Positions 10,089 to 51,334 are shown, counted from the first letter of the stretch. The stretch is 64,000 bases of DNA from Dehalococcoidia bacterium (GCA_034429995.1 DAOUEZ010000033.1:22294-86293), one strand, 5' to 3'. Program-made: numbers and translations. The notes: a model not told the origin generated them from the letters alone.

Positions 10089-10328
10089 CGCGCCTCCTCC
10101 CAGTCTGCACCTGATTCTAGCGGCCGACACCTGGTCAGGCAAGAAGTGCGGTTCGTCAGCGACTTCCGAACTCTGTATAAGCGGTTCCTAGTGAGCACCT
10201 GGGGGGGCCGCCTGCTTTTCCCTCAGGCCGTGGTGGGCTGCCGCTAGCCCCCACATTTCGGCCGTGCAAGGCAGCCCGTCCAGCAGGGCGCATCGTGCAT
10301 CCCAGAAATTTCTGGCAACGATTTTCTA

Positions 10329-11534: not shown

Positions 11535-11537
11535 TCT

Positions 11538-15174: not shown

Positions 15175-15175
15175 G

Positions 15176-16204: not shown

Positions 16205-16240
16205 GAGCATGGCGAATCCGCCGATGTCGAGGGGAGTTGC

Positions 16241-17257: not shown

Positions 17258-17267
17258 GAGCGAGACG

Positions 17268-22189: not shown

Positions 22190-22516
22190 CTACCAGCGGC
22201 GGCCTCCCGTTCGACCACCACCACCACCACCACCGCCGCCGGGACGCCGGCCGCCCCCTCCCCTGTCCTGGGGCGGACGCGCCTCGTCCACGGTGATCAT
22301 GCGCCCGTCCAGAGTCTTGCCGGTCAGCTCCCCGATCGCCTTACGAGCCTCGGCTGCCGTGGACATCTCCACGAACCCGAATCCCCGCGAGCGCCCGGAG
22401 AACCTGTCCACCACCACGGACGCCGAGTCCACCTTGCCAGCCTGCTCGAAGAAGGCACGGAGACTCTCATCGGTTGTATCAAATGAAAGGCCGCCTACGT
22501 ACAGCTTTCTCGCCAC
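22190..22516 (-). CDS. RNA-binding protein with one RRM domain and a Gly/Arg-rich C-terminal tail.
   Basis: RNP2 'KLYVGGL' and RNP1 'RGFGFVEM' motifs. C-terminal 'GGGGRRPGGGGGGGGGRTGG'. Confidence 0.85.
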   Translation of the reverse strand: MARKLYVGGLSFDTTDESLRAFFEQAGKVDSASVVVDRFSGRSRGFGFVEMSTAAEARKAIGELTGKTLDGRMITVDEARPPQDRGGGGRRPGGGGGGGGGRTGGRRW

Positions 22517-22804: not shown

Positions 22805-23887
22805 CTAGTGTCCGAGGGTGAAGATCGCCTGCATGTCGCTGAGGGTCAGCAGGGTGTTGAAGTCCGACCCCGGGAAGTAACGCGACCAAGTGTTGCTTAT
22901 GCGGTCAAGCGAGTAGGCGGCATCTATGGTGACGCCTGTGCAGGTGGCCAGGGCGGTGCCGGTCGCCGTGCTTGGGCCGTCCCACACGGACATCGCCCAC
23001 CTCCCCGACAGCGGGCAGTCAAGGAGCTGGCCGGGAGCAGGCGTTGGCGTGGGTGTCGGTGTGGGTGTGGCCGTGGGTGTTGGCGTGGGCGTGACCGTTG
23101 GCGTCGGTGTCGGCGTGGGCGAAGGGGTTGGCGTGGGCGTAACGCCGGTGCAGTCCATGCCGACGGCGACGAGACCGTATACCGTGGTGTACGTGCTATC
23201 GAGAATGAGGTCCTCGTCCACGCTGCCGTCAGAATCCTGGTCCACGGTGTCCGCCTCGTTCTTGCCGGGGTCGTAGATGTCGGCGGCGGGCGCTCCGTCG
23301 TCCTTCACCACAATGGTGTCCAGACCCAGAGGGTAGATGCCAGGGGCAGCGCCGGTAACCACCTTCAAGGTGTAGCGGCCGAGCACGCCCTCGGTGTAGG
23401 TTGGAGGGCCCTCGGCTGCGTTCGTGCCCGTGTCATCTACCGTCGCCGCGTAGCTGCCGTCGGTGTCGGTGGGAGTGTCGCTGCCAGTGTCATCCGGAAT
23501 GCTGTCGGTGTCCTCGGCGATCAGCACCACGCCGCTGGTCATGTGAACCGCGTCGGTGATCTGCATGGGAGCGAGAGCGCTGGCATCGGGATAGGTGAGG
23601 TTGTAGCTATAGCTGTCGAGGTTCCCGACGGTGGGGATATTCATCAGGAAAACGTCGATCTCGCGGCTCTGGCCGGCGTTGATACGCACGCACCTGTCAA
23701 TATCGCCGAGCGAGTCCGCCGTGTTGCCGGTGGGGACCATATCGATGCCGACAGTGGTGACAGTGGCGACCGCAGACGCCTCGTCGCCGCGGAGCAGCCA
23801 CACGCCGGCTAGCGCCAGCACCGCTGTGAGTCCAACTGCCAGGGCCAGGGCCAGCGCCCCACCCCGACGAAATGGCAATCCTTTCAT
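22805..23887 (-). CDS. Secreted/surface protein. Signal peptide, acidic N-terminal domain of unknown function, long PT-linker (TPTPTPSPTPTPTPTVTPTPTPTATPTPTPTPTP), and a C-terminal ~75-aa two-Cys module homologous to the N-terminal module of the PAE esterase at 117..1505.
   Basis: N-terminal hydrophobic 'ALALALAVGLTAVLALAGVWLL'. C-terminal 'CPLSGRWAMSVWDG...LATCTG...AAYSLD...LSDMQAIFTLGH' aligns with 'CPQAGKWAISVWSG...FATCNE...AAYSID...LDDMQGVIALGG' of ORF 117..1505. Confidence 0.5.
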   Translation of the reverse strand: MKGLPFRRGGALALALAVGLTAVLALAGVWLLRGDEASAVATVTTVGIDMVPTGNTADSLGDIDRCVRINAGQSREIDVFLMNIPTVGNLDSYSYNLTYPDASALAPMQITDAVHMTSGVVLIAEDTDSIPDDTGSDTPTDTDGSYAATVDDTGTNAAEGPPTYTEGVLGRYTLKVVTGAAPGIYPLGLDTIVVKDDGAPAADIYDPGKNEADTVDQDSDGSVDEDLILDSTYTTVYGLVAVGMDCTGVTPTPTPSPTPTPTPTVTPTPTPTATPTPTPTPTPAPGQLLDCPLSGRWAMSVWDGPSTATGTALATCTGVTIDAAYSLDRISNTWSRYFPGSDFNTLLTLSDMQAIFTLGH

Positions 23888-24188
23888 GATTCTACCCTCC
23901 TACCACTAAAGGCCTCAAAGGAGAAGCCGAGCATACGATCGCTCAAATTTTACCCCAAACAATCAGAATGTCAATACGCACAAGCCCAACGCGAGCAAGG
24001 AAGCCCCCTGGTGGCGGATCATCCTGCCCGCGCAGCTAATCCGCCCACTTCCAGCGGGCCTGCTCCCCCGCCAACAGAAAGGGAGCTTTCAGGTGGGTGC
24101 GAGACTCCGAGATGGCGGCGGTATAATACGTACATCTTTCATCGGCCCTACGAGCCGCCATACCAAAGGAGCAAGAGGGAGGGCAGCG

Positions 24189-25082
24189 ATGCTCAGACAC
24201 GAGTACGCTGATCTGAACGGCATCCGACTGCACTACGTGACCGCGGGAAAGGGCGAGCTGATAGTGTTCCTCCACGGCTTTCCCGAGTTCTGGTACGAGT
24301 GGAAGAACCAGCTCGCCGAGTTCGAACGCGACCACCAAGCTGTGGCTCCCGACATGCGCGGCTACAACCTGTCATCAAAACCCGCAGACGTTGGTCAGTA
24401 TCGGGTCGAGCACCTAATCGAAGACCTGCGCGCGCTCGTGGAGCACCTCGGCCACAAGAAGCTCGTCCTCGTCGGTCACGACTGGGGCGGCGCCATCGCC
24501 TGGGCATTCGCAATCTACCATCCCCATTATGTTGAGAAGCTCATCATCATAAACGCGCCGCATCCGGGCGTGTTCGAGCGCGAGCTGCGAGAGAACCCGG
24601 CTCAACAACGGGCCAGCCAGTACATGCTGGTGTTCCGCAGCCCGCAGGCCGAGCAGACTCTCTCGGCGAACAACTACGCTGCGCTGGTGGATGCCGTCCT
24701 GGGCGAGGGGCTCAAGCAGGGTTACTTCACCGAAGAGGACCGCAAGGCGTACATCGAAGCATGGTCGCAGCCAGGCGCTCTCAGCGGCGGCCTGAATTAT
24801 TACCGAGCCGCGGGCATCGGCCCGCCCACGAGTGAAGGCGCTCATTGGCGAGCCACGCACAACACGGCCCCCGGTCTGTCCTCGCTGACGGTGAGGGTGC
24901 CGACGCTGGTGATCTGGGGCGAGAAGGACCAGGCTCTACTCATCGGCAACCTCGAAGGGCTTGGCAGGTTCGTGCCCGATTTGACAGTCAAGCGCATCCC
25001 CGACGGCTCGCACTGGGTCATCCACCAGAAGCCGGGGCTCGTTAACTCGCATATACGAGACTTCGTCGAGGGCAAGCGGTAG
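24189..25082 (+). CDS. Alpha/beta-hydrolase fold enzyme (epoxide hydrolase / haloalkane dehalogenase-like).
   Basis: 'HGFPEFWYEW' and 'LVGHDWGGAIAW' (nucleophile elbow GHDWG). ATG at 24189 preceded by 'aaggagcaagaggga'. Confidence 0.75.
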   Translation: MLRHEYADLNGIRLHYVTAGKGELIVFLHGFPEFWYEWKNQLAEFERDHQAVAPDMRGYNLSSKPADVGQYRVEHLIEDLRALVEHLGHKKLVLVGHDWGGAIAWAFAIYHPHYVEKLIIINAPHPGVFERELRENPAQQRASQYMLVFRSPQAEQTLSANNYAALVDAVLGEGLKQGYFTEEDRKAYIEAWSQPGALSGGLNYYRAAGIGPPTSEGAHWRATHNTAPGLSSLTVRVPTLVIWGEKDQALLIGNLEGLGRFVPDLTVKRIPDGSHWVIHQKPGLVNSHIRDFVEGKR

Positions 25083-25205
25083 AATAAAGGCTCCCGCACC
25101 GCCGTTGCCCTACGGCTGGGCGGATGGTAGATTTGGGCTGCGGCGGAAGGCCGCCGGCAAACATCGTGGAAGCACCATCGTCCTAGCCCACAGCGGAGGA
25201 GCCCA

Positions 25206-25841
25206 ATGGACCTTAGCATCCTCAAGCAGGCGCTCATAGAGGGCGACGACCAGACGGTCGCTGACCTGACCCAACGTGCTCTGAAGGAAGATCATTCAGC
25301 CGAGACGATCCTCAACGACGCCCTGATCAGCGGCATGGAGAAAGTGGGGGGGCTCTTCGAGCAGGGCGAGTACTTCGTGCCCGAACTGCTACTGGCAGCA
25401 CGGGCTATGCAAGGTGCCATGGAGGTGCTGCGCCCTCTTCTCACCGCCAGCGACTATCAGCCAATGGGCAAGGTAGTCATGGGAACAGTCCAGGGTGACC
25501 TCCACGACATCGGCAAAAAGCTGGTGGCGATGATGCTGGAGGGCAGCGGCTTCGAGGTGATTGACCTGGGGGCGAACGTCCCGCCCGAGCGCTTCGTTGG
25601 GGCCGTGGAAGAGAGCGGAGCCCAGCTAGTGGGACTGTCGGCTCTCCTCACCACCACCATTCCCGCCATGCAGGCGACTGTAGGCGCGCTGCGAGAGGCA
25701 GAGCTGCCGACGCAGGTGAAAGTCATGATTGGGGGCGCCCCCGTTACCTCCGCGTTCGCCCAGGACGTCGGCGCCGACGGCTACGCCCCCGATGCCTCCA
25801 GCGCCGTGGCCCTGGCCCGCAGGCTTGTGGCCTCCGACTAA
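25206..25841 (+). CDS. Cobalamin-binding corrinoid protein (B12-binding cap + Rossmann domain) of a methyltransferase system.
   Basis: 'GDLHDIGKK' DxHxxG cobalamin-ligand motif. 'SALLTTT' and 'KVMIGGAPVT' B12-binding domain motifs. Confidence 0.8.
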   Translation: MDLSILKQALIEGDDQTVADLTQRALKEDHSAETILNDALISGMEKVGGLFEQGEYFVPELLLAARAMQGAMEVLRPLLTASDYQPMGKVVMGTVQGDLHDIGKKLVAMMLEGSGFEVIDLGANVPPERFVGAVEESGAQLVGLSALLTTTIPAMQATVGALREAELPTQVKVMIGGAPVTSAFAQDVGADGYAPDASSAVALARRLVASD

Positions 25842-25943
25842 CTGGCTTGAAGAGCAGGCCTCCGGTTCGCCCGTTTGAAGGCATCAGCTACAGGCTGTAG
25901 ACGCGCTGCAAGCCCACAGTCAACGGATACGAGAGGTAGCATC

Positions 25944-26870
25944 GTGCGAGCAGACCCCGCTCCTCGCCAGGCGAAGCTCCTGAAGATCGGCGCATCCCCG
26001 AGGCCAGCCATCTACGATGGCGCCAAAGGCGTCTACCTGAGTCCCAGCCTGGCGCAGGTGGGCAAGCGACCTTCGGACCTCACTGAGTGGCTGAACCTCC
26101 TGGCCCCGGATATCGTCGGCCGAGCACATCGGGAGTATGTAGCTGCCGGTTCGCAGATCATTCAGACCAACTCCTTCAACGGAAATCGCTTCCGCCTGCA
26201 GGCCTGCGGCCTCGACTCCCGGGTGGAGGAAGTGAACGTCCTGGCGGCCCAGATCGCTCGCCAGGCCGCGGGGGACGACGTGCTTGTAGCGGGCGTCATC
26301 GGCCCCAGCGGGAAGCTGCCGACTGTGGGAGAAGTGGCAAAGGACGAGCTGGTGGCGGCCTTCGCTGAGCAAGCCAGGGCCCTGGACAAAGGAGGCGCGG
26401 ACTTCTTCCACATCGAGACCATGTCCGATATGGACGAGGCAGTAGCGGCTGTAGAAGGCGTCCGAAGCGTCTCGGGCCTGGCGGTAGCGCTCACAATGTC
26501 CTTCGACGCCGGGAATGTGGAGCGAGGCCTGCGCACCATGATGGGCGTTCCCCCCAAGGCGCTGGTGGAGAAGGCGAATGAGCTCGAACTGTTCGCTGTG
26601 GGCGCCAACTGCGGCTTGGGCCTGGAGGGCTATCAGCCGCTCGTCCGCGACCTGATTGAGTCAGCGCCGACCGCCCTCGTTATCGCCAAGCTGAATGCGG
26701 GCAGGCCGAGGATTGAGGGCGGACGGGCAGTGTACGAGGCCTCGCCAGCCAGCATGGCAGACTATGCTGTCTGGTGCGCCCGCAACGGAGTTCGCATCGT
26801 CGGTGCTTGCTGCGGCAGCACGCCCGAGCACATCAAGGCGATAGCCAAAGCGCTGACCCGCGAGCTGTGA
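25944..26870 (+). CDS. Homocysteine S-methyltransferase-domain (PF02574, MetH N-terminal-like) zinc methyltransferase; candidate methylcorrinoid:thiol(homocysteine) methyltransferase.
   Basis: 'IYDGAKG', 'AGSQIIQTNSF', 'GANCGLG' and 'GACCGSTPEHI' match the Hcy-binding Zn site pattern (GLNCALG / GGCCGTTPEHI in MetH). GTG start chosen after a 'gagagg' RBS; the upstream TTG of the long ORF was rejected. Confidence 0.65.
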   Translation: MRADPAPRQAKLLKIGASPRPAIYDGAKGVYLSPSLAQVGKRPSDLTEWLNLLAPDIVGRAHREYVAAGSQIIQTNSFNGNRFRLQACGLDSRVEEVNVLAAQIARQAAGDDVLVAGVIGPSGKLPTVGEVAKDELVAAFAEQARALDKGGADFFHIETMSDMDEAVAAVEGVRSVSGLAVALTMSFDAGNVERGLRTMMGVPPKALVEKANELELFAVGANCGLGLEGYQPLVRDLIESAPTALVIAKLNAGRPRIEGGRAVYEASPASMADYAVWCARNGVRIVGACCGSTPEHIKAIAKALTREL

Positions 26871-26873
26871 GGC

Positions 26874-28508
26874 CTACGGCTCCGGAAAGCCAAGGTAGGC
26901 CGCGAAGCGCGACGAAAAGTCGGGGCTTTCCGCCAGGGAGACGTGCCGGATGCGCCGGGCCAGGCGCCTCGCTTCTCGCAGTCGCTGGGGGAAGATGAGG
27001 GCAAGCTTGGCCCCCATGCCGGCCACGTTGCCGACGGGATGTATCCGCCCCTGCAGCGCCTGGGGGAGCATCCCCAGGGCGAGCAGACTCTCGGCTCGCA
27101 TGGAACTGCCGAAGGCACCGCCAACGAACACGCGCTCGATGGACTCCGGCTCCACCCCCGCTTCCTCCAGAACGCTCTCGGCGCCCGTGCGGACGGCCGC
27201 CTTCGCCAACTGCACCTGGCGAATGTCCGCTTGGGTCAGCAGGATGGGCTTTGCCAACTGGTCCCCGTGAAGAACGAAGTAGCGCTGTCCTCCCTCCTCT
27301 CGCAGGCGGGCACGCAGGTCGGATGGCACGTCGGCTGGGACCTGGCCCGGCCCCAAGAGGCGCCCGCTGGGCAAGAGGAGACCGCGGCGCAGGAGAACAG
27401 TCACCGCATCCGCCAGCCCAGAGCCGCACAGGCCCTGCGGCGGCGCTCCGTCGATGGTGTCGAGCCGCAGCCGCCCGTCCTCCTCCTCCACCCACTCCAC
27501 CGCGCCAGCGACGGCCGCCATCCCCGAGGAGATATGCACCCCCTCGAAGGCCGGCCCCGCGGCGCAGGAGCAGCCCACGGCCGTCCGGCGAGATAGCAGC
27601 ACTATCTCGCCGTTGGTGCCTAGATCGATGAAGAGGCTTGGCTTCCGCCAGCCAGCGAGCCCCAGGGCGAGCAGCCCCGCCACGGCGTCCGAGCCGATTT
27701 GCCCACCCACGCCTGGCAGGAGCCTCACCCGGGCGTGAGCCAGTCGCTGAAAGCCGAGAACGCCAGCGGCCACCGGCGGCGTCTCGGTGAAGACCGGACG
27801 GTAGGGTGCTACACCAAGGGGCCAGGGGTCCACCCCTCGGAAGAGATGCATCATCGTCAGGTTCCCCACGGCTGTCAAGTTGGAAACCGCCTCAAGGGGA
27901 ACGCTGTGGCGGGAGCACAGCTCCACCAGGTGCTCCTCTATAGCCCTGACGAGGCAGCTCTGAATCTCGGCCAGTCGCTCGCGGCCCTGGTGGGCATAGA
28001 CGATGCGAGAGACGACATCGGCTCCGAAGGCCCGCTGCGGATTAGCGAAGGCGGTGGCCCCAATCTGACGCGCCCGGGCCAGGTCTACCAGATAGCAGAC
28101 CACCGTAGTGGTACCGATGTCGATGGCCGCCCCGTAGCCAGTGGCCAGCCGCCGCCCGCCGCGCCGCTCTCTGGCTGACTCCGGTACGGCAGCCTCCGTA
28201 AGGATGCGAAGGGTAGCAGCAGGTGCCAGCGCCGGGATGACGATGCGGCAGTCGCGTTCGACCGATGCCTGGCAAGCCAGCCGCCAGCCAGCCTTTACAG
28301 CCGCGGCTCCCAGGAGGAGGTGATCTTCCGGAGCCGCTGGAGGAGCCCCCTCCAGGAAGCGGACGCGGCAGGCACCACACGTCCCTCGTCCGCCGCACTC
28401 GGAATCAATGCCCAGGCCGGCTGCCCTCACCGCTGCAAAGAGATTGTCGCCCCGCCGCACCTCGATCTCCGACTGAAAGCCGTGCAGAACGACGCGCACA
28501 AGATCCAT
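26874..28508 (-). CDS. RACo-type reductive activator of corrinoid enzymes (N-terminal 2Fe-2S ferredoxin + ASKHA ATPase domain).
   Basis: 'CGGRGTCGACRV' plant-type ferredoxin motif at the N-terminus. ~540 aa, as expected for a DUF4445/ASKHA body. GGAGGAG RBS before ATG 28508. Confidence 0.65.
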   Translation of the reverse strand: MDLVRVVLHGFQSEIEVRRGDNLFAAVRAAGLGIDSECGGRGTCGACRVRFLEGAPPAAPEDHLLLGAAAVKAGWRLACQASVERDCRIVIPALAPAATLRILTEAAVPESARERRGGRRLATGYGAAIDIGTTTVVCYLVDLARARQIGATAFANPQRAFGADVVSRIVYAHQGRERLAEIQSCLVRAIEEHLVELCSRHSVPLEAVSNLTAVGNLTMMHLFRGVDPWPLGVAPYRPVFTETPPVAAGVLGFQRLAHARVRLLPGVGGQIGSDAVAGLLALGLAGWRKPSLFIDLGTNGEIVLLSRRTAVGCSCAAGPAFEGVHISSGMAAVAGAVEWVEEEDGRLRLDTIDGAPPQGLCGSGLADAVTVLLRRGLLLPSGRLLGPGQVPADVPSDLRARLREEGGQRYFVLHGDQLAKPILLTQADIRQVQLAKAAVRTGAESVLEEAGVEPESIERVFVGGAFGSSMRAESLLALGMLPQALQGRIHPVGNVAGMGAKLALIFPQRLREARRLARRIRHVSLAESPDFSSRFAAYLGFPEP

Positions 28509-28649
28509 ATACGCTCCTCCAACCCACAGGGACCACAAGTGGCGTCCGAGGGACCACCTGCTCGCTTTCACAGGACATCCTGAATATACTATTGGCTTAG
28601 CTCTCAGGCAAAGCCGATGACTGCTGGAGGGCTGGGGGGAGTGACCGCC

Positions 28650-29849
28650 ATGCTGGCCCGCGAGAGGGTGCTCACGGCCCTCAACCACGAGGAGCCGGAC
28701 AGGGTGCCCATCGACCTTGGCAGCACCCCAGTGAGCGGCATCTGCCGCAATGCTTACGCCGACCTCCTCGCCTGCCTGGGCCTCTCACGACGGGAGATCC
28801 AGATAGCCGACATGGTCCAGCAGCTGGCGGGCGTCGACGAGGACGTCCTTCGGGCTCTGGAGGTGGACTTCCGGCCTATTAAGATGAACCCACCGGCCAG
28901 CTTTCGTCTTCAGATTCGTGACGAGGGGGACTACGAGACCTACTACGATCAGTGGGGGGCCAAGCTAAGCCGACCGAAAGTCGGCGGCTATTACTTCGAC
29001 TATGTCGAATATCCAATCAAGGAATCCACCCTGCGGGCTCTGGAGCGCTACCCCTGGCCCGATCCCGACGATCCCAGCCGCTATGAGGGGCTGCGCGAGC
29101 GAGCGCGAGCCCTCCGTGAGCGAACGCCCTACGCACTGGTGGGCACCTGCGATTTGGGCACCGACATCCTGGCCAGGCCACAGTGGATCCGCGGCTACGC
29201 CGCGTCCATGCTTGACCTTGCGGCCAACCCCGACTTCGCTGAAGCCTTCCTGGAGCGGCTTACCGAGATCGCCGTGCGGGCCTGGAGCCACTTCCTCGAC
29301 GAGGTGGGCGAATACCTGGACGTGGCGGCCTTCTACGACGACCTGGGGATGCAAGACCGTCCTCTCATCTCACCGGGCATGTACCGCCGCCTCGTCAAGC
29401 CGCGGCACGCCCGCATCATCGAGACCATCAAGGCCCGAACGAAGGCCAAGGTCTTCATGCATTCCTGCGGCGCCGTAAGCGAGTTCATCCCCGATATCAT
29501 CGAGATCGGGGTGGACATCCTCAATCCCATCCAGGTATCGGCCGCCGGGATGGGCGACACGGCAGAACTGAAGCACCGCTACGGCCAGCGTCTGGCATTC
29601 TGGGGCGGCGCCTGCGACTCCCAACGGGTGCTTCCATTCGGCACGCTGGCAGAAATACAGGAGGAAACACGGCGGCGCATCGCCGATCTGGCGCCTGGCG
29701 GCGGCTTCGTCTTCGCCCCTGTCCACAACATCCAGGACGACGTGTCGGGCGAGAAAACGCTAGCGCTCTATCGCACGGCTCTGGAGCAGGGACGCTATCC
29801 CATCGGGCGAGCACCCACGGGACGCGAACGACAGTGGGGGCAGCAATGA
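28650..29849 (+). CDS. URO-D-fold (MtaA/CmuA-like) methyltransferase.
   Basis: 'ERVLTALNHEEPDRVPID' N-terminus and overall length are typical of uroporphyrinogen-decarboxylase-fold corrinoid methyltransferases. RBS 'gggggag' before ATG 28650. Confidence 0.65.
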   Translation: MLARERVLTALNHEEPDRVPIDLGSTPVSGICRNAYADLLACLGLSRREIQIADMVQQLAGVDEDVLRALEVDFRPIKMNPPASFRLQIRDEGDYETYYDQWGAKLSRPKVGGYYFDYVEYPIKESTLRALERYPWPDPDDPSRYEGLRERARALRERTPYALVGTCDLGTDILARPQWIRGYAASMLDLAANPDFAEAFLERLTEIAVRAWSHFLDEVGEYLDVAAFYDDLGMQDRPLISPGMYRRLVKPRHARIIETIKARTKAKVFMHSCGAVSEFIPDIIEIGVDILNPIQVSAAGMGDTAELKHRYGQRLAFWGGACDSQRVLPFGTLAEIQEETRRRIADLAPGGGFVFAPVHNIQDDVSGEKTLALYRTALEQGRYPIGRAPTGRERQWGQQ

Positions 29850-29887
29850 CCACGGGCCAGGTGAGGCGGGCGTCTATGCAGCCAGGT

Positions 29888-31051
29888 TTAGCTGGTGCCG
29901 AAATGCTCTCGGTTCCAGCGACGCCCCTCGTCCAGCATGGCTAAGTAGTTCTGCTTGGGGATGTAGTTGGCGGCGGTGTTGCCGCTGCCCAGGCAGTAGC
30001 CAGTGCCCTTGACGCCGCAGACCTCCAGGATCTCTCGGGTGCGGGCGCGCACCTGCTCCTCTGTGCCCCCGCCGAGTAAGTGCATGTCCACGCCGCCCAA
30101 GATGGCAATGCGGTCGCCCCAGCGCCGGTAGACCTCCTCCACCGGCATGATCTTGTCCTCGAAGGAGTGCTTGGCGTCGATGCCGATATCGTCGATGGCT
30201 TCGTCCATCATCTTGTAGACGTTGCCGCAGGAGTGGAAGATGAGCAGCCTGCCGGCCTGGTGGGTGATGTCGGTGATCTTCTTGTAGTGGGGAAAGATAT
30301 AGCGACGGATGACGTCCGGCGAGACAAGGGTGCCGCTATAGAAGCCGAGGTCGTCGCTGAGGAGCATCATGGCCGCGTTGTCAATGGTGGCGGCCTGGGC
30401 GAAGGTGGCAGTCACGAGCTCTCCCACCCGCTGGCAAATGGCCTCTACCAGGTCTGGCTGATCGTGGAGGGCATAGGAGAAGGACTGCAGGCCCATGAGC
30501 CAGCTAGCGTTCTCGAAGATGCCGCCGTAGTGAAAGACAGCGACCTTCATCCCCTCCGGCACGCGGGCGCTGACGTACTCCAGGGCTATGTGCCTGATCT
30601 CTTCGGCCTTTGGCCACGGATAGGCCTCGAAGTCGGCCCAGCTCTGGATGGGGCCGCTGGCCTCGTCCTGCCAGTGGCGCTGGCCGTCGGGCCAGTTCTG
30701 GACCCCGGCGGTATCAGCGGCGGCCTTCAAGCTCCGTGGAAAGCTGAGACCCGTCACCATGAACACGTAATCGTAGCCCATCTCATAGCAGAAGCGGACG
30801 TACATATCGAGGGACTTCATCAAACCCGGGAGTTCATCCGCGGGAAGCTCAAGGGTAGGCTCCTCGACGTAGCGGTGCAGGTTGACGGGGAATTTCTCAT
30901 CGAGGACGGCCTCGACCATGCCAGGGTCGGCGAACAGCTCGAAGAAGGGCACCGGGCCTGGTGGCCCCTGGCGCAGGATGGTGCGGCGCAGATTCTCGAA
31001 ATCGGGCTGGCGCTGCACGGCAAATCGCGGTCCGGGAGACTGGGAATTCAT
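29888..31051 (-). CDS. Second URO-D-fold (MtaA/CmuA-like) methyltransferase.
   Basis: URO-D-like length and pattern ('ILGGVDMHLLGGGTEEQVRARTREILEV'). AGGAGGGG RBS before ATG at 31051. Confidence 0.65.
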   Translation of the reverse strand: MNSQSPGPRFAVQRQPDFENLRRTILRQGPPGPVPFFELFADPGMVEAVLDEKFPVNLHRYVEEPTLELPADELPGLMKSLDMYVRFCYEMGYDYVFMVTGLSFPRSLKAAADTAGVQNWPDGQRHWQDEASGPIQSWADFEAYPWPKAEEIRHIALEYVSARVPEGMKVAVFHYGGIFENASWLMGLQSFSYALHDQPDLVEAICQRVGELVTATFAQAATIDNAAMMLLSDDLGFYSGTLVSPDVIRRYIFPHYKKITDITHQAGRLLIFHSCGNVYKMMDEAIDDIGIDAKHSFEDKIMPVEEVYRRWGDRIAILGGVDMHLLGGGTEEQVRARTREILEVCGVKGTGYCLGSGNTAANYIPKQNYLAMLDEGRRWNREHFGTS

Positions 31052-33668
31052 CGTGACCCCTCCTGACAGGCGGCCGAACCTCACTGGCCCTTGAAGCCAT
31101 TATAGCGATGCGCTGCCACCAGGCAACAGCCTGGCCGCTGACCCGCAGAACGAAGGGTTGATGGTGCCCAGCCGCCTCCCCGTCGCCACCCCGGCTAGGC
31201 CGAGAGGTGACCTGCCGACGAGGCGGCGAAGAGTCCGGCCCTCAGCGGAGGACGCAGCCCCTAGAGCACATCCTTTCGCTTCCGGGCGAGGAAAGGCGGC
31301 CTTTGCTTGCGACATGGCCTAGCCCTCGAAGAAGACGGTGAACAGCGCCTGCTGAGGAAGGGTCAGGCGCACCGATAGCAGGCCGTCGGGGCGGCGAGCC
31401 ATGCTGGCTGCGGGCGCATCGCTCTCTAGCCTCTGCTCCTGGTAGGGCGGCGGCACGTGGATGATCACCTCGCCCTGCTTCTTGGCGGGCGGCGTCAGTC
31501 GCACTGTCAGAGCCCGCTGAGCGGCGTCAAAGCGGGCGTCTTCGATCTCGACGGCGCCCTGGCTGAAATGGAATGTGCTCGATACTATCTGAGGTTCGTT
31601 GGTGGCCGGGCGCAGGGAGAGGAGCTTGGCCGAGTGGGGCGGCATGACCGAGAGGCGAATCTCATGCTGGTGCACACCGAAGTAGCAGTCCTGCCACAAA
31701 TCGAAGACGTGGACGGGCTCGGCGGGCAGGGGGACTGTCACCTCGCTGGGCTCATCCTCCCACTGGAACACGCCCAGGAGCCACCACCGCTGGAAGGAAC
31801 GCTCGATGGCGAGGCGAAGGAAGCGAGGGAACGAGCGCTCGAAAAGGTCCAGGGGAATCGCCGAGGAGCCGTAGGGCGGCAGGAGGAGGCTGGCGATCTG
31901 CCACCGCTCGGGCGGCAGCTTGGGCATGGCATCGCTGAGGACGACCATTCCGCCGCTGAGGGCAATGGCAGTGGCCAGGGAGTGCACCTCGTCGAGGGAG
32001 AGGGCGGTCTCGCTGTCCCGAGCGAGCAGGCAGTCGGGGTCGTTGAGCCAGAGACGGCCGTGCGTCCAGAAGCGGTTGACGACGTTACGGATGGCGTTCT
32101 CGCAGGCGGGCAGCGACTCGACGGGTTGCCGATTCACAGCGGTGACCTCAAGCGGAACCAGCTCGCTGGATAGCCGCCAGTAGGGCGCCACGTCGGGCCC
32201 GATACGCTGGGCGTTGACCAGACCAACGGACGGGCCGAGGGGGGCACCGCAGCCCAGGATGAAGGCGTCGCTGGCCCCCCGGCGGATGGCTTCCAGGCCC
32301 CGCCGGTAGGCCTGGGCGCGAGTGGCCTGGCGGTCATAGCGCCTGCCCTCCACAGCGCCGGCGTAGATGAAGTCCAGCTTCAGATAGTCGAAGCGGCATT
32401 GGCCTACCAGCGTCTCGGCTACATGATCCAGCCAAGCCTGAGCGCCGGGATGGGTGCAGTCGAGGGCATAGCACTCCTTGCCCCAGTTGTGGATGGCCAC
32501 CACCGGCCTGCCGGCGCCGTCGCCCACCATCCACTCGGGGTGCTCGCGGTAGAGAGCGGAGGTGGAGGCGGCCAGAAAGGGAGCCAGCCACAGGCCAGCC
32601 TTAAACCCTTTGTGGTGAATGCGTTCAGCGAGCCAAGGCAGGCCGTGGGGAAACTTGTCGTTGGTGGTGACCCAGTCGCCTATGTCCGCCTGGTAGCCAT
32701 CGTCAACCTGGATGTACTCCACAGGCAGCTCATCACGATGAGCGTGCAGGAACTCCAGATTTTCCAGCACCGCCTGTTCGCTCACACCGCCGAAGTAGTA
32801 GTACCACGAGGACCAGCCGCTGGGCACGTGCTGCCAGCCCAGGGCACCCATCTGGCGGCCCAGAGCATCGCCGTAGCGAGCCAGGGCGTCCAGGGGCGGT
32901 CCCGTCACATCGACCAGCAGCTTCTCCGACGAGAGGCTCTGCCCAGGCGCGACGGTGAGGCCATCGGCGTAGGACACGGCAGATAGGGTGCGGGACGCCT
33001 GCCTGCCGCCGGGCAGCTCCAGGCGGACCTGGGAGAGCTGATCGGCGGCGGTGATGAAGCCGGCCAGGAGTGAGGCGCCGGTCGTCGGGTCGGCCACCAG
33101 GCCCACGAGGTCGCTGGTGAAGCATCCCTTTTGGGGGGTAGCCGAGGACGGCCCGATAATCGGCGAGGGAGCCGGCGGGTCATCCTGGGCGCAGCTCAGG
33201 CTAAGCGTGGGGCTCCAGGACTGCCAGCCGTGCTTGTAGAACTGCCAGCGGCGGCAGGAGCGGCCCAGGCCGAGGCGGCCGCGGCCAGCAGTCGGCGTGG
33301 CCAGCACCCGAAAGCTCGCCACGCCTATAGGCTGCGAGGAGCCGTTGACCAGTTCCATCTCCATGACGGCGAAGGGTTGGCCTTCGTACAGGGTCAGAAA
33401 TAGGCGGAGCCCAGGGCGATCCCGGACGGCAAGGGTAGACAGGCGAACGGTGATGCCTTGGCCGTGGACGTCGCTGAGCGGCTGGACGTCGTACTCTTTG
33501 CGGAAGCCACTATCCAGGGTGCTGACGACATCGCCGCCCACCAGCTCCACGGCGGCATGGGCTCGACGGATGACCGTTCGGCCAGCGGAACGATCTCTGA
33601 AGGCCAAGCTGCCCCGGTCGAGCCGGCAGCGCACCTCCAGCCACCGATTGGCTATCAGCAGGCCATAT

Positions 33669-34895
<1,227 letters not shown>

Positions 34896-34909
34896 CGGCT
34901 GGTAGCTCG

Positions 34910-36283
34910 TTACTCGCCCAGGCGGCGGTTGTAGTTCTCTATGATGTCATTGGCTTCGGCCGCCGCGTCAGCGAGGGCCTCGATGGGGTCTTTGGACCCG
35001 ACCACCGTCTCCTCGATAGCGGTAGCGACAACCTCTCGCACGTCCCTGATGGGGCCGAGGAGCGGGCCGAGGGACTCCTGAGTCGATGGCGTCTCCAGGA
35101 CAAGGTCGACGGGGACACGGAACTGCGGGTACTCGGCCACGACGTTCTGTGCCGCCGGCAGGTCGTAGGCAGAGATTCGCACCGGCAGGAGGCCAGTGCC
35201 AGCGTACCATTCGGCCTGCTGTTCCGGTTCCAAAAGCCACTTGATGAACTTCCAGGCTGCCTCCTGCTCCGCCTCGGGGCGTCCCTTCAGGATCCAGAGG
35301 CCCCGGCTGTACACCCCCGGCAAGCCTGTCCCGCCGGGAACGCCGGGCTGACCGACCACCCCCAATTCCACGTTCATGCCCCCGCGCTCCAGAACATCCA
35401 CCACCGAACGCAGGGCTTGTGAGCTGGCGAAACTCATAGCGGCCCGGCCGACTCCCATCGACAGGAGAGCAGCGTCGCCGCCGGGGTTGCGACCAACGTT
35501 GAGGGCTGACCCGTCCTTGACCATTTCGTGCCACCAGCGGAAGAAGGCCTGCCCTGTCGGACTGTCGAAGAGGACCTCCGTGGCTCGTCCCTGGCGGCCG
35601 TTGCTGTTGTTCACATAGAAGTCGCCGTGCTCGGCCACGGTCAGTTCGACGTACCAGGGGTCGATGTCAAGGGCGATGCCGCTGCGGAGGAGGTTGCCGT
35701 GGGCGTCCCGCTTTACCAGCTTCTGGGAGAATTCTCGCACCTCCTCCAGATCCCTGGGTGGCTGCTCGGGATCGAGCCCCACCTCGCTGAAATCCAGCTT
35801 ATTGTAGTAGAGCAAGGGGACGGCAATGGAGAAGGGCATCCCGTGGAGCTGGCCGTCCACGGTGTAATACTGTATGGCCTTCTCATCGAAGTCGGAAAGG
35901 TCGTAGTCCTCACCATCGATGAACTCCTGCACCGGCCTTGCGGCCCCGCTGTCCATGACTCTCTGGGCATCGACCTCGGCCAGATAGATGAGGGCTGGCA
36001 CGTCCCCCGAACCGAGGGAGGCGATGAACTTGAGCATCGTTTCCTCGTCGTTTCCCTGGAAGGCCATCTTGACCTCAACCTCGTCCTGCTCGGAGTTGAA
36101 GCGGCGTGCCAGTCCCTGGATGGTGTCCAGGTTGCTGGCCACCTCCGAGTGCCAGAAGCTAATCTCCACCGTCCCCGCCGCCGGTGTCGCACTGCCTTCT
36201 GGCTCTCCTTCCTCCTCGCCACCACAGGCGGCCACGCTTACTCCAACAATGAGCAGCATCAGGAAGATCAGAGCCTTCTTCAT
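34910..36283 (-). CDS. Carbohydrate ABC transporter substrate-binding lipoprotein (SBP family 1). Paralog of 59336..60709.
   Basis: 'MKKALIFLMLLIVGVSVAACGG' lipobox. SBP_bac_1-like. Last gene before galK in the operon. Confidence 0.8.
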   Translation of the reverse strand: MKKALIFLMLLIVGVSVAACGGEEEGEPEGSATPAAGTVEISFWHSEVASNLDTIQGLARRFNSEQDEVEVKMAFQGNDEETMLKFIASLGSGDVPALIYLAEVDAQRVMDSGAARPVQEFIDGEDYDLSDFDEKAIQYYTVDGQLHGMPFSIAVPLLYYNKLDFSEVGLDPEQPPRDLEEVREFSQKLVKRDAHGNLLRSGIALDIDPWYVELTVAEHGDFYVNNSNGRQGRATEVLFDSPTGQAFFRWWHEMVKDGSALNVGRNPGGDAALLSMGVGRAAMSFASSQALRSVVDVLERGGMNVELGVVGQPGVPGGTGLPGVYSRGLWILKGRPEAEQEAAWKFIKWLLEPEQQAEWYAGTGLLPVRISAYDLPAAQNVVAEYPQFRVPVDLVLETPSTQESLGPLLGPIRDVREVVATAIEETVVGSKDPIEALADAAAEANDIIENYNRRLGE

Positions 36284-36298
36284 GGCTATCCCTCCTCG

Positions 36299-37168
36299 TT
36301 AGCCTTTGAGAGCACCAGCGGTGAGGCCCCTCACCAGCTGGCGCTGGAACAGGACGAGCAAGATCAGTATTGGCAGCGCCGAGATCACTGTCGCTGCCAT
36401 GGTTATATTGAACGTGTCGACCTCTCGGCCGCGCAGAGCGGCCAGACCGATCTGTACCGTGCGCATGCTGTCCTCGTTGGTCACCAGCAACGGCCACAGG
36501 TACTGGTTCCAGGCCTGAAGGAAGCCGAACACGGCCAGCGCGGCCAGCACCGGCCGTGAAAGGGGCAGCACCACGAAAGTGAGGAAGCGAATGTGACCGT
36601 AGCCGTCGATGGCGGCAGCGTCCCGCAGTTCTTGAGGGATGGTGAGGAAGTGCTGTCGCAGCAGGAATGTACCCAGGCCGGTGGCCAAGAAGGGCACGGT
36701 CAGCGCCTGGTAGGAATCCAGCCAGCCGAGCCACCGAATGGTCTGGAAATTGGGAACGATGGAGACCTCCCAGGGCACCATGAGGGTGGAGAGGAAGAGG
36801 ACGAACAGGAAGGTTCGGCCGGGGAAGCGGAGGAAGGCAAAGGCGTAGGCGGCGAGGGCGGAGGTAACCAGCTGGCCAACCACGATGACGCCAGCCATGA
36901 TAAGGCTGTTCAACATGTACCTCATGAGGGGCACTTCATCCAGCGCCTTTTTGAAGTTGCCCCACTGCGGATCGAAGGGGAACAGCTCGGGCGGCCAGGC
37001 AATGATGGTCGTTGACGATAGCAGGCTGTTGACCACCGTCATGTAAATGGGAAAGACGACTATGCCTCCCACCACTATCAGAACGGCATAACGCAAGGCG
37101 TAGCTCGCCCAGCGCCGATAGCGCTCGACCCCTCGTTTCCTTGCGGGCGTTGCTATGTCCACGCTCAT
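36299..37168 (-). CDS. Carbohydrate ABC transporter permease (MalG-like).
   Basis: Six TM segments. EAA-like loop 'AAIDGYGHIRFLTFVVLP'. Confidence 0.8.
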   Translation of the reverse strand: MSVDIATPARKRGVERYRRWASYALRYAVLIVVGGIVVFPIYMTVVNSLLSSTTIIAWPPELFPFDPQWGNFKKALDEVPLMRYMLNSLIMAGVIVVGQLVTSALAAYAFAFLRFPGRTFLFVLFLSTLMVPWEVSIVPNFQTIRWLGWLDSYQALTVPFLATGLGTFLLRQHFLTIPQELRDAAAIDGYGHIRFLTFVVLPLSRPVLAALAVFGFLQAWNQYLWPLLVTNEDSMRTVQIGLAALRGREVDTFNITMAATVISALPILILLVLFQRQLVRGLTAGALKG

Positions 37169-37171
37169 GGC

Positions 37172-38119: not shown

Positions 38120-38151
38120 GGGCAGACTCTGTGCTCGGGCCTAGCCTGTAC

Positions 38152-44231: not shown

Positions 44232-44233
44232 GC

Positions 44234-50715: not shown

Positions 50716-51174
50716 AACGGCCTCCTGCTCAAACGCTTATGAACACCTTCCCGTCGCCATTGACATCACCCACAGCCACTGACCGCCCAAAGTAGGCGTC
50801 TACCTGGGGGTTAGGGATATCCTAAGTGAAGATTGGGCTATGATTCCAATCCCAATGCATTGCTCCATGGACGTCTCTGTGAGATCTCCTCATCGGAAGA
50901 GAGCAAACCTAGCATGAAGGAATCGACACACTACGCTTTCACGTGGAGAGAGCGGCTGAGCGGTCTTATCAAGGCAGCGAGCCGGGCAAGATCGTTCATG
51001 GTCCTGGATTCGACTTATGAGTCATAGGCAAGAATAGCACATTAGGACAGAGGCCGGGTTTGCAGATGTCGACAACATTCGCTGCACGACATTAGCGCCG
51101 GAGCCAAACAGGTAGAGAGCCTGCCTCAGAAGCAGAAAATCATCGGTCGGCGATCAGTGCCGTCAGGCGACCCG

Positions 51175-51299: not shown

Positions 51300-51334
51300 G
51301 TATATGATCTGAAGATGGTAGCGAGGGGCCGGGG

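What the first reader, a model, noticed from the sequence alone, without database searches (positions are those of the whole stretch)
24189..31084. Modular cobalamin-dependent methyltransferase system with a MetH-type homocysteine-binding module
The cluster holds a corrinoid protein (DxHxxG), a RACo-type reductive activase (2Fe-2S + ASKHA) and two URO-D/MtaA-fold methyltransferases. Instead of the pterin-binding MT2 usual in bacterial O-demethylase-type systems, it has a stand-alone PF02574-like Zn/Hcy-binding domain protein (motifs GANCGLG / GACCGSTPEHI). That suggests methyl transfer from an unidentified methylated substrate via cobalamin directly to homocysteine or another thiol, i.e. a split MetH-like methionine-forming demethylation pathway. 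An alpha/beta hydrolase lies immediately upstream. The substrate of the two MtaA-like enzymes cannot be inferred from sequence.
Basis: partly seen in the sequence, partly recalled or inferred. Interest (0 to 1): 0.65.

Follow-up and report, generated by a model that had tools for sequence, protein, structure and literature searches.

The report
Corrinoid methyl-transfer module ending in homocysteine
A soil or peat Dehalococcoidia bacterium carries a conserved five-gene vitamin-B12 methyl-transfer module whose acceptor enzyme is a stand-alone homocysteine methyltransferase, so methyl groups taken from other compounds probably go to methionine without a folate step encoded in the module; this is a new variant of recently described split methionine-synthase systems.

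Summary
Window 25206-31051 encodes five genes:
- a corrinoid protein;
- a full-length PF02574 homocysteine methyltransferase (HcyMT), with no pterin-binding match;
- a RACo-type reductive activase;
- two divergent URO-D/MtaA-fold methyltransferases (UroA, UroB).

The same five genes recur with different flanks in related Dehalococcoidia MAGs. In 12 of 13 clustered loci HcyMT sits directly beside RACo, in four of them overlapping it by 4 bp. The donor-side genes vary: UroA, UroB, a third URO-D subfamily, MtaB and MttB. No folate-type methyltransferase appears in any island or in the 64-kb window.

UroB has the invariant His-Cys-Cys zinc signature of thiol methyltransferases. UroA swaps Cys for Asp and lacks the third Cys, as O-demethylases do.

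The alpha/beta hydrolase and the sugar genes are not conserved neighbours.

The best reading is donor, then Co(I)-corrinoid protein, then homocysteine, giving methionine, with ATP-dependent reactivation by RACo. The concept has precedents: three-part split MetH with RamA, MtgBCDE, and mlp clusters. I therefore rate it a new variant of a known kind.

Three things are unresolved:
- whether a folate module lies elsewhere in the genome;
- the donor substrates;
- whether UroB is a donor-side or acceptor-side enzyme.

The parts
25206..25841 (+). Corrinoid (B12-binding) methyl-carrier protein, 211 aa, with the DxHxxG motif (DLHDIG)
   Evidence: PF02607 plus PF02310. The best NCBIfam models are MtgC_2 (205 bits), TIGR02370 (187) and MtbC (183), against MetH (143); all are below their cutoffs. 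It is conserved next to HcyMT in most related loci.
25944..26870 (+). Stand-alone homocysteine S-methyltransferase module (HcyMT), 308 aa, MetH/MtgE-like, with three zinc cysteines
   Evidence: PF02574 at 1.6e-60, full length. NF005718 scores 225.6 bits, YitJ 218, MetH 160 and MmuM only 80. The 1q7m alignment shows E158, C223 and C289-C290 conserved, and they are invariant in 28 homologues. The 308-aa gene call is confirmed on 9 contigs.
26874..28508 (-). RACo/RamA-type ATP-dependent reductive activase of corrinoid proteins (2Fe-2S plus ASKHA), 544 aa
   Evidence: Fer2 plus Raco_middle plus RACo_C_ter. AcsV-like at 328 bits, below the 800-bit cutoff. It is immediately adjacent to HcyMT in 12 of 13 clustered loci, with a 4-bp overlap in L006, L017, L020 and L023.
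28650..29849 (+). UroA: URO-D/MtaA-fold corrinoid methyltransferase, 399 aa, with an atypical metal site (His271, Cys273 replaced by Asp in orthologues, no third Cys, invariant His359-Asn360). Proposed donor-side (MT-I) enzyme for an O-methyl-type donor
   Evidence: PF01208 at 62 bits. The AF2 model has pLDDT 91.3. The top PDB fold match is MtaA 4ay7, E 8.7e-14, TMt 0.72. The MtaA alignment places Gly at the position of the third Cys.
29888..31051 (-). UroB: URO-D/MtaA-fold methyltransferase, 387 aa, with invariant HSCGN and GYC (His-Cys-Cys, 78 residues between the two Cys). It is thiol/selenol-type and the most conserved gene of the module
   Evidence: PF01208 at 76 bits. Invariant columns are listed, and motif counts. 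The best PDB sequence match is MtaA 4ay7, 2e-4. The 120 best homologue clusters are all at least 74% identical. Its orthologue in L006 is 81% identical, against 58-71% for the other four genes.
24189..25082 (+). Alpha/beta hydrolase, adjacent but not a conserved member of the module
   Evidence: Abhydrolase_1 at 1.8e-36. It is present upstream only on contigs of the same population (L033). It is replaced by peptidase S8 in L002 and by creatininase in L004/L005.

Best explanation
This is a self-contained, modular corrinoid-dependent methyl-transfer system.

Proposed mechanism:
1. The corrinoid protein (CP) in its Co(I) state is methylated by donor-specific URO-D-fold methyltransferases.
2. UroA, whose metal site resembles that of O-demethylases, is proposed to take methyl groups from an O-methyl-type donor.
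3. UroB, with a His-Cys-Cys site, is proposed to handle a methyl-thiol or methyl-selenol compound. It could alternatively act as a second, thiol-directed acceptor enzyme.
4. The stand-alone MetH/MtgE-like homocysteine methyltransferase takes the methyl group from methyl-Co(III)-CP and makes methionine. Here it plays the role that a folate methyltransferase plays in acetogen O-demethylases.
5. RACo re-reduces CP that has been inadvertently oxidised to Co(II), at the expense of ATP.

Shown here: the domain identities, the catalytic-residue signatures, and the conserved gene linkage.
Inferred: the direction of methyl flow, the donor substrates, and that CP (rather than a free onium compound) is the methyl donor for HcyMT.
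For: 1.
2. The five-gene set is conserved with unrelated flanks in L002, L004/L005, L008 and L009.
3. Across 13 distinct clustered Dehalococcoidia loci, HcyMT is directly next to RACo in 12. In L006, L017, L020 and L023 the two genes overlap by 4 bp, which implies co-transcription and probably coupled translation.
4. The donor-type genes around this constant core vary. They include UroA, UroB, a third 389-aa URO-D subfamily, a full-length MtaB immediately downstream of HcyMT (4.9e-162) and MttB (4e-115). This is the pattern expected if HcyMT is the shared terminal methyltransferase.
5. No PF00809 or PF02007 protein was found in the 40-odd large ORFs of the window, in the precomputed annotations of L002, L004 and L006, or among 82 neighbour ORFs of 9 clustered loci.
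6. HcyMT scores far better against MetH/MtgE-type models than against the cobalamin-independent MmuM model.
7. Published precedent exists. A stand-alone Hcy module, a corrinoid protein and a RamA-like activase act together in methionine synthesis in P. inhibens and R. pomeroyi, and the corrinoid protein there is shared with a donor methyltransferase (PMC5764234, PMC12478193).
8. The rule used to read UroA and UroB comes from PMC10418091: His-Cys-Cys marks S/Se-methyltransferases, and Cys replaced by Asp/Glu or lost marks O-methyltransferases.
Against: - No experiment exists for any of these proteins.
- The rest of the genome could not be read. A pterin/MtrH-type methyltransferase, MetF, MetH or MetE may be encoded elsewhere. 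In R. pomeroyi, mtgC, mtgD and mtgE have widely separated locus tags (SPO2160, SPO1863, SPO1884).
- In one syntenic lineage HcyMT stands without CP or RACo nearby (L012, L014, L016, L019, L022).
- The homologous stand-alone module of P. inhibens can methylate homocysteine directly from DMSP or betaine in vitro, without cobalamin (PMC12366255).
- Methionine can be only a stoichiometric methyl sink, so a purely Hcy-directed system cannot support energy metabolism.
- UroB is the most conserved component, and its thiol-type site would also suit an acceptor-side (MtaA-like) role.
- The O-type versus S-type reading of the zinc sites rests on a rule stated in a preprint. The UroB model is of low confidence around the third Cys.
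Confidence: 0.55

Rival explanations
1. Housekeeping split methionine synthase within an MtgBCDE-like network. CP, HcyMT and RACo are the cell's B12-dependent methionine synthase. Its methyl-tetrahydrofolate:corrinoid methyltransferase (pterin-binding) is encoded elsewhere. The URO-D enzymes merely share the same CP, and most donor-derived methyl groups go to folate for oxidation rather than to homocysteine.
For: - The published systems have exactly this logic, and their genes carry widely separated locus tags (PMC12478193, PMC5764234).
- The best NCBIfam model for HcyMT is the PRK07534 'BHMT' model. I take this to be the MtgE/Bmt family, because PMC12478193 describes MtgE as homologous to the S. 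meliloti Bhmt.
- Related islands carry MtaB and MttB, genes normally used for growth on methanol or methylamines, which needs a folate route.
- A lineage with HcyMT away from any CP exists, so the Hcy module is not tied to one CP locus.
Against: - No folate-type methyltransferase lies within 10 kb of HcyMT in any of 13 clustered loci, nor in the 64-kb window. Published bacterial donor-methyltransferase clusters usually carry it (statement in PMC10418091).
- The CP is methylotroph-type, not MetH-type.
- D. mccartyi, the studied Dehalococcoidia member, lacks MetF and AcsE (PMC7857596), so a folate route cannot be assumed for the class.
Confidence: 0.25
2. Methyl-sulfur or methyl-selenium recycling, as proposed for mlp gene clusters. 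UroB (and possibly UroA) demethylates or methylates small thiols or selenols such as methanethiol, dimethylsulfide, methylthio-metabolites or methylselenide. UroB may be the true acceptor-side enzyme, and HcyMT only salvages the methyl group into methionine.
For: - The architecture matches the mlp clusters (PMC10418091): several MtaA-like proteins, a CP and a RACE-type activase, with no folate methyltransferase.
- UroB has invariant HSCGN and GYC with MtaA-like spacing.
- UroB is the most conserved gene of the module.
- A Cys/Met-metabolism PLP enzyme lies next to the islands in L006 and in one other clustered locus.
Against: - UroA lacks the His-Cys-Cys triad.
- Orthology of UroA and UroB to Mlp1-3 was not tested, because no reference sequences were available.
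- No selenium or methionine-salvage genes (SelABCD, MarHDK-like) were seen in the window or in the neighbour ORFs.
- UroB is absent from several islands that keep CP, RACo and HcyMT (L020, L024, L028).
Confidence: 0.12
3. HcyMT is a cobalamin-independent BHMT/MmuM-like enzyme that uses an onium donor (S-methylmethionine, DMSP or betaine) directly. Its position beside the corrinoid genes has no mechanistic meaning.
For: - The P. inhibens homologue does this in vitro (PMC12366255).
- PF02574 includes such enzymes.
- One lineage has HcyMT without corrinoid neighbours.
Against: - Adjacency to RACo in 12 of 13 clustered loci, with 4-bp overlaps in four, is hard to explain without functional coupling.
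- The MmuM model scores 80 bits, against 160-226 bits for the MetH/MtgE/YitJ-type models.
Confidence: 0.05

Closest known systems
MtgBCDE / three-part split MetH of Roseobacters (P. inhibens PGA1_c13370/c13350/c16040 plus RamA-like; R. pomeroyi MtgB, C, D, E) - PMC5764234, PMC12478193
   Same: - A stand-alone PF02574 homocysteine module.
- A separate, non-MetH-type corrinoid protein that is shared with a donor-specific methyltransferase.
- A RamA/RACo-type activase instead of the MetH reactivation domain.
   Different: - Here the Hcy module is physically clustered with CP, RACo and the donor methyltransferases.
- The donors are URO-D-fold enzymes (plus MtaB or MttB in relatives) rather than only MttB-family MtgB.
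- No pterin-binding MtgD was found nearby.
- No DUF1638 was seen.
- The host is Dehalococcoidia, not aerobic marine Proteobacteria.
- The NF005718 score is below its cutoff (225.6 against 338).
Type 1 mlp gene clusters (Kountz and Balskus, PMC10418091)
   Same: - Two or more divergent MtaA-like URO-D proteins, a corrinoid protein and a bacterial RACE activase.
- No folate methyltransferase.
- A proposed link to methionine recycling.
- UroB shares the His-Cys-Cys site.
   Different: - The mlp clusters as described have no PF02574 gene. Here an explicit homocysteine methyltransferase is the constant partner.
- UroA lacks the His-Cys-Cys triad.
- Orthology to Mlp1-3 was not tested.
Acetogen/Desulfitobacterium O-demethylase and Cdm/Mto systems (MT-I of the UroD superfamily, CP, MT-II of the MtrH/pterin type, activating enzyme) - PMC13222342, PMC8630106
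   Same: - Four-component logic.
- A URO-D-fold donor methyltransferase.
- An MtxC-type corrinoid protein.
- A 2Fe-2S RACo-type activase.
   Different: - The acceptor-side enzyme is a homocysteine methyltransferase, not a tetrahydrofolate or H4MPT methyltransferase.
- UroA and UroB gave no PDB match to any deposited O-demethylase or Cdm MT-I. MtaA is the nearest solved structure.
Core methionine synthases MesA-D / core-MetE (PMC7857596, PMC7005905)
   Same: Folate-independent methionine synthesis in which a zinc enzyme takes the methyl group from a methyl-corrinoid protein. One example, MesB, is from Dehalococcoides.
   Different: Those enzymes have the MetE fold (PF01717). This one has the MetH N-terminal fold (PF02574) and is clustered with its presumed corrinoid donor and the donor-loading enzymes.

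Membership tests
PF02574 homocysteine S-methyltransferase (MetH N-terminal module type) | Full-length profile match above the gathering score | tested here: met
   205.9 bits against a cutoff of 22, covering profile positions 2-283 of 283.
PF02574 homocysteine S-methyltransferase (MetH N-terminal module type) | Three zinc-ligand cysteines (xNCx and xCCx) and the Glu that binds the homocysteine amino group | tested here: met
   C223, C289, C290 and E158 align with the corresponding motifs and with Glu146 of T. maritima MetH 1q7m. They are invariant in 28 homologues. The role of the Glu comes from my own knowledge of MetH structures.
PF02574 homocysteine S-methyltransferase (MetH N-terminal module type) | Methylcobalamin (methyl-CP):homocysteine methyl transfer | not testable with these tools
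   This needs an enzyme assay.
MtgE/Bmt-type stand-alone Hcy module of split MetH (which I equate with NF005718 PRK07534) | Score at or above the NCBIfam curated cutoff | tested here: not met
   225.6 bits against a cutoff of 338. It is still the best-scoring model.
MtgE/Bmt-type stand-alone Hcy module of split MetH (which I equate with NF005718 PRK07534) | Works with a separate corrinoid protein and a RamA-like activase | tested here: met
   This was tested only as gene linkage. CP and RACo are adjacent in the window and in 12-13 related loci.
MtgE/Bmt-type stand-alone Hcy module of split MetH (which I equate with NF005718 PRK07534) | Partner pterin-binding methyl-THF:corrinoid methyltransferase (MtgD, PF00809) | tested here: inconclusive
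   None was found in the 64-kb window or within 10 kb in the related loci. The rest of the genomes could not be searched.
O-demethylase-type four-component corrinoid methyltransferase system | URO-D-superfamily MT-I, corrinoid protein and RACo-type activating enzyme | tested here: met
   The MT-I role of UroA and UroB is itself inferred.
O-demethylase-type four-component corrinoid methyltransferase system | MT-II that methylates tetrahydrofolate (MtrH/pterin-binding type) | tested here: not met
   There is no such gene in the cluster. A PF02574 protein stands in its place.
Soluble CoM methyltransferases MtaA/MtbA (NF040654, NF041608, TIGR01463) | Score at or above the curated cutoffs | tested here: not met
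   UroA scores 30.8 of 400, 18.9 of 600 and 42.8 of 235. UroB scores 38.1 of 400, 31.8 of 600 and 56.7 of 235.
Soluble CoM methyltransferases MtaA/MtbA (NF040654, NF041608, TIGR01463) | His-x-Cys ... Cys zinc triad | tested here: met
   Met for UroB only: HSCGN in 24 of 24 sequences and GYC in 22 of 24, with 78 residues between the two Cys. Not met for UroA: HxC in 14 of 24 and HxD in 10 of 24, with Gly at the third position in the MtaA alignment.
Type 1 mlp gene cluster | Orthology of the URO-D proteins to Mlp2 and Mlp3 | not tested
HemE uroporphyrinogen decarboxylase | Match to the HemE equivalog model over the full length | tested here: not met
   No HemE model appears among the NCBIfam hits at E up to 0.01. 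The PF01208 hits are partial and weak.
RACo/AcsV reductive activase of corrinoid proteins | N-terminal 2Fe-2S ferredoxin domain, then the middle domain, then the ASKHA C-terminal domain | tested here: met
   PF00111, PF17651 and PF14574 occur in that order. The AcsV exception-level cutoff is not reached (328 against 800).

The most novel reading that the evidence does not exclude
In this Dehalococcoidia lineage the module may be the only route to the methyl group of methionine. The cells would lack methyl-tetrahydrofolate formation, as D. mccartyi does, and would build methionine and SAM from environmental methyl donors (methoxylated aromatics, methanol, methylamines, methyl-sulfur compounds). 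These donors would be captured by interchangeable MT-I modules and passed through one corrinoid protein directly to homocysteine. Methyl groups would then be a required nutrient, and the module would be a folate-independent, PF02574-based counterpart of the MesB/CoFeSP system.
Probability: 0.15. Interest if true: 0.75.

Novelty: new variant of a known kind. Interest (0 to 1): 0.5.

Why it matters
If the reading is right, an abundant but uncultured group of soil, peat and sediment Chloroflexota links the demethylation of environmental methyl compounds directly to methionine and SAM supply, through vitamin B12 and with no folate step encoded in the module.

- This extends the recently recognised principle of one corrinoid protein serving several plug-in methyltransferases, with homocysteine as acceptor. 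That principle was known from aerobic marine Proteobacteria; here it would apply to a different phylum and to URO-D-, MtaB- and MttB-type donor enzymes.
- It gives a concrete acceptor enzyme to test for the unexplained clusters of MtaA-like genes that lack a folate methyltransferase.
- It affects how B12 demand, methyl-group budgets and predicted methionine auxotrophy are read from Dehalococcoidia genomes.

Tried and rejected
- **Riboswitch or other RNA control of the cluster.** Rfam found nothing in the whole window at gathering scores, and nothing at E up to 1 in 23500-31500.
- **Single-sequence PDB searches of UroA and UroB.** No hits. Profile searches reached only MtaA 4ay7, weakly.
- **AF2 model of UroB.** The alignment is shallow and the model poor (pLDDT 68.9, disordered around the third Cys). 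Its fold search does not separate MtaA from UroD. I did not use it for the metal site.
- **Alpha/beta hydrolase as a member of the module.** Rejected, because it is not conserved in the closest relatives. The weakly similar hydrolases near HcyMT in other loci are only 24-31% identical.
- **GH36-like, galactokinase and sugar ABC genes as a hint of methylated-sugar substrates.** Rejected. The downstream neighbours in relatives are an acyl-CoA dehydrogenase or pyruvate:ferredoxin oxidoreductase genes.
- **UroA and UroB as true HemE.** Rejected.
- **Literature.** I found no paper describing this cluster type in Dehalococcoidia.
- **Genome-wide presence of folate-module, MetF or MetE genes.** This could not be tested, because only one genome scan was allowed and loci are limited to 10-kb flanks.
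- **Phylogeny of UroA and UroB against OdmB, VdmB, MtvB, MtoB, CdmB, MtsA and Mlp1-3.** This could not be done for lack of reference sequences.

Full report
**1. Observation**

| Coordinates | Strand | Assignment | Evidence |
|---|---|---|---|
| 24189-25082 | + | alpha/beta hydrolase | Abhydrolase_1, E 1.8e-36 |
| 25206-25841 | + | corrinoid protein (CP) | PF02607 plus PF02310, motif DLHDIG |
| 25944-26870 | + | homocysteine methyltransferase (HcyMT) | PF02574, E 1.6e-60, profile 2-283 of 283, no pterin-binding hit |
| 26874-28508 | - | RACo activase | Fer2 plus Raco_middle plus RACo_C_ter |
| 28650-29849 | + | UroA | PF01208, 62 bits |
| 29888-31051 | - | UroB | PF01208, 76 bits |

- The best NCBIfam models for UroA and UroB are MtaA/CmuA-type, far below their cutoffs. 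No HemE model matches.
- UroA and UroB are only 24% identical to each other.
- I refined the gene starts from homologue lengths and from gene calls on nine metagenome contigs that carry the identical HcyMT.

**2. The homocysteine module**

- Model ranking: NCBIfam ranks the PRK07534 'BHMT' model first (225.6 bits, below its 338 cutoff). Next come the YitJ N-terminal half (218), MetH (160) and the cobalamin-independent MmuM model (80).
- Why PRK07534 matters: PMC12478193 describes MtgE as homologous to the S. meliloti Bhmt, so I take PRK07534 to be the family of the MtgE/Bmt stand-alone modules.
- Closest solved structure: the Hcy domain of T. maritima MetH (1q7m, 7.6e-45). The alignment pairs query E158 with Glu146 (my numbering, counted from the printed alignment). 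It also pairs GANCG and GACCGSTPEH with the zinc-cysteine motifs.
- Conservation: D25, G26, E158, C223, C289 and C290 are invariant in 28 homologues. The protein therefore looks like a homocysteine-specific zinc methyltransferase of the MetH type.
- Wider distribution, from an exhaustive search of 1.84 billion representatives:
  - The whole Dehalococcoidia clade collapses into one 50% cluster at 397 bits.
  - The next hit is at 217 bits.
  - Of the next 149 representatives, 86 are stand-alone proteins of 270-360 aa and 20 are multi-domain MetH-like proteins.
- A stand-alone Hcy module is therefore common in nature. This clade is distinct.

**3. The module is conserved and the flanks are not**

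- All close homologues come from Dehalococcoidia MAGs.
- The arrangement CP, HcyMT, RACo (reverse), UroA, UroB (reverse) recurs in L002, L004/L005 and L008 at 82-91% identity, and rearranged in L009.
- Upstream, the neighbour in those loci is a peptidase S8 or a creatininase. Downstream, it is an acyl-CoA dehydrogenase or pyruvate:ferredoxin oxidoreductase genes.
- The window's alpha/beta hydrolase and its GH36-like, galactokinase and sugar ABC genes therefore do not belong to the module.

**4. What is constant and what varies**

I mapped the window proteins onto 32 loci by tblastn. This gave 13 distinct clustered loci: L002, L004, L006, L008, L009, L017, L018, L020, L023, L024, L025, L026 and L028.

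- In 12 of them RACo is immediately next to HcyMT.
- In L006, L017, L020 and L023 the two genes are co-directional and overlap by 4 bp.
- CP is present in most of them.

The donor-type genes vary from locus to locus:
- UroA and UroB orthologues;
- a third URO-D subfamily of 389 aa;
- in L020 and L023, a full-length MtaB directly downstream of HcyMT (E 4.9e-162);
- MttB nearby (E 4e-115);
- L006 has six URO-D paralogues plus MttB and MtaB.

No PF00809 or PF02007 protein was found in any of these places:
- the precomputed annotations of L002, L004 and L006;
- the strong Pfam hits of 82 further neighbour ORFs;
- the roughly 40 large ORFs of the window.

A constant CP, RACo and HcyMT core with interchangeable donor methyltransferases is what one expects if HcyMT is the shared terminal methyltransferase.

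One lineage is an exception. L012, L014, L016, L019 and L022 (the last identical to L001) share the synteny acetyl-CoA-synthetase-like gene, HAD hydrolase, HcyMT, an unknown 376-aa protein, and an alpha/beta hydrolase. HcyMT there has no corrinoid genes nearby.

**5. The two URO-D proteins differ in kind**

UroB family:
- HSCGN is present in 24 of 24 sequences and GYC in 22 of 24. There are 78 residues between the two Cys, which I recall as close to the MtaA spacing.
- A profile search aligns HSCGN with the HICGN of M. mazei MtaA.
- UroB is the most conserved gene of the module. Its 120 best clusters are all at least 74% identical. Its L006 orthologue is 81% identical, against 58-71% for the other four genes.

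UroA family:
- The His is invariant, but the following Cys is Asp in 10 of 24 orthologues. The position of the third Cys is Gly in the MtaA alignment. A GGGFVFxPVHNIQ motif is conserved instead.
- The UroA model is confident (pLDDT 91.3). Its nearest solved fold is MtaA (4ay7, E 8.7e-14, TMt 0.72).

Interpretation:
- According to PMC10418091, His-Cys-Cys marks S- or Se-methyltransferases of this superfamily. O-methyltransferases replace one or both Cys by carboxylates or by non-ligands.
- I therefore read UroB as thiol/selenol-directed and UroA as O-demethylase-like. This is an inference from a sequence rule, not a demonstration.

**6. Mechanism proposed**

1. Donor methyl groups are loaded onto Co(I)-CP by UroA and possibly UroB.
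2. HcyMT moves the methyl group from methyl-Co(III)-CP to homocysteine and forms methionine.
3. RACo repairs CP that has been oxidised to Co(II), using ATP.

The domain identities, catalytic signatures and gene linkage are shown. The direction of flow, the donor identities and CP as the donor for HcyMT are inferred.

The CP scores higher against methylotroph corrinoid proteins (183-205 bits) than against MetH (143 bits). The system is therefore not a simple fission of MetH. The same conclusion was drawn for MtgC in PMC12478193.

**7. Rivals**

- (a) The trio is a housekeeping split MetH, with its pterin module elsewhere in the genome as in Roseobacters. I could not search the genomes, so this stays at about 0.25. 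It is partly compatible with the main model.
- (b) It is an mlp-like methyl-sulfur or methyl-selenium system in which UroB is the key enzyme, or even the acceptor-side enzyme (about 0.12).
- (c) HcyMT uses onium donors directly, as P. inhibens Bmt does in vitro (PMC12366255). The tight RACo linkage argues against this (about 0.05).

**8. Comparison with known systems and novelty**

Published precedents:
- a three-part split MetH plus a RamA-like activase (PMC5764234);
- MtgBCDE, in which one corrinoid protein serves both a donor methyltransferase and the Hcy module (PMC12478193);
- clusters of MtaA-like genes lacking a folate methyltransferase (PMC10418091);
- core methionine synthases fed by corrinoid proteins (PMC7857596, PMC7005905).

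What I did not find described:
- a PF02574 homocysteine module physically embedded in, and constant across, islands of URO-D, MtaB and MttB donor methyltransferases with CP and RACo;
- this arrangement in Dehalococcoidia;
- no folate methyltransferase nearby.

I rate this a new variant of a known kind, with interest of about 0.5. The most novel reading not excluded is that the module is the lineage's only source of methionine's methyl group (probability about 0.15).

**9. Limits**

- All functional statements are sequence-based.
- The locus map rests on tblastn with the window proteins and on a simple longest-ORF gene picker.
- L001 and L022, L006 and L021, and L004 and L005 are duplicate or near-duplicate records. 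Each pair was counted once.
- No regulatory RNA was found.

Noticed in passing
window 52682-53970 (- strand), inside the low-GC patch 50000-54000: This looks like the remnant of a second corrinoid methyltransferase pair. A 115-aa ORF (53623-53970) resembles the cap and the C-terminal end of a corrinoid protein (38% identity to CP residues 146-208) but lacks the DxHxxG core. It is followed by a 313-aa URO-D-like ORF (52682-53623; Pfam profile 3-247 of 346) that ends soon after an HFCG motif. GC here is 0.52-0.55, against 0.60-0.69 elsewhere in the window.
   Followed up: partly
window 10575-19972 (+ strand): A hopanoid-type biosynthesis cluster in a Dehalococcoidia-like genome. It holds two squalene/phytoene synthase paralogues, an amine-oxidase-type flavoprotein, a LytB fused to a YjbQ/UPF0047 domain (13843-15174), a polyprenyl synthetase, a radical-SAM plus DUF3463 protein, a PNP_UDP_1 phosphorylase and a squalene-hopene cyclase (E 1e-154).
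   Followed up: no
L020:8289-12239 and L023:8292-12242; L023:14791-16278; L006:18540-20915: In related Dehalococcoidia, RACo, HcyMT and a full-length MtaB (methanol:corrinoid methyltransferase, E 4.9e-162) form a tight co-directional run. MttB-family genes lie nearby. In L006 (gene calls), and apparently in one other clustered locus, a Cys/Met-metabolism PLP enzyme lies next to the island.
   Followed up: partly
L012, L014, L016, L019, L022 (L022 = L001), around position 10000: A separate lineage keeps HcyMT in a conserved run: acetyl-CoA-synthetase-like gene, HAD hydrolase, HcyMT, an unknown 376-aa protein with no Pfam match, and an alpha/beta hydrolase. There are no corrinoid genes within 10 kb.
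   Followed up: partly
L006:3072-4241, L020:6922-8091, L024:3652-4821, L026:4316-5488, L018:15684-16808: A third URO-D subfamily of about 389 aa recurs in the islands. The L006 and L020 members are 80% identical to each other, and the subfamily is barely similar to UroA or UroB. Pfam matches only profile positions of about 74-195.
   Followed up: partly
window 3854-5131 (+) and 8712-10142 (-): Two paralogues with the lactate racemase N-terminal domain (Lar_N) lie near an Ldh_2 dehydrogenase, an HpcH/HpaI aldolase and an enoyl-CoA hydratase. Lar_N genes also lie near the module in L002 and in other loci (3 of 82 neighbour ORFs).
   Followed up: no
window 22805-23887 (-) and 22190-22516 (-): A 360-aa protein with no Pfam match has an N-terminal hydrophobic segment and a long Thr-Pro linker (TPTPTPSPTPTP...). 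Next to it is a 108-aa RRM_1 RNA-binding protein with a Gly-rich tail.
   Followed up: no
window 31319-39249 (- strand): A sugar-utilisation block lies directly downstream of the module. It holds a 797-aa melibiase/GH31-like glycosidase, a galactokinase and a four-gene sugar ABC transporter. It is not conserved next to the module in relatives.
   Followed up: yes
window 39607-42477 (-); 43008-46258 (-); 49072-50715 (-) and 56435-58021 (+): Other notable genes in the window: a 956-aa PMT_2 glycosyltransferase with a C-terminal PA14 domain; a molybdopterin oxidoreductase (formate-dehydrogenase-like) beside an FrhB/FdhB-type subunit; and two dihydroxy-acid/6-phosphogluconate dehydratase paralogues.
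   Followed up: no
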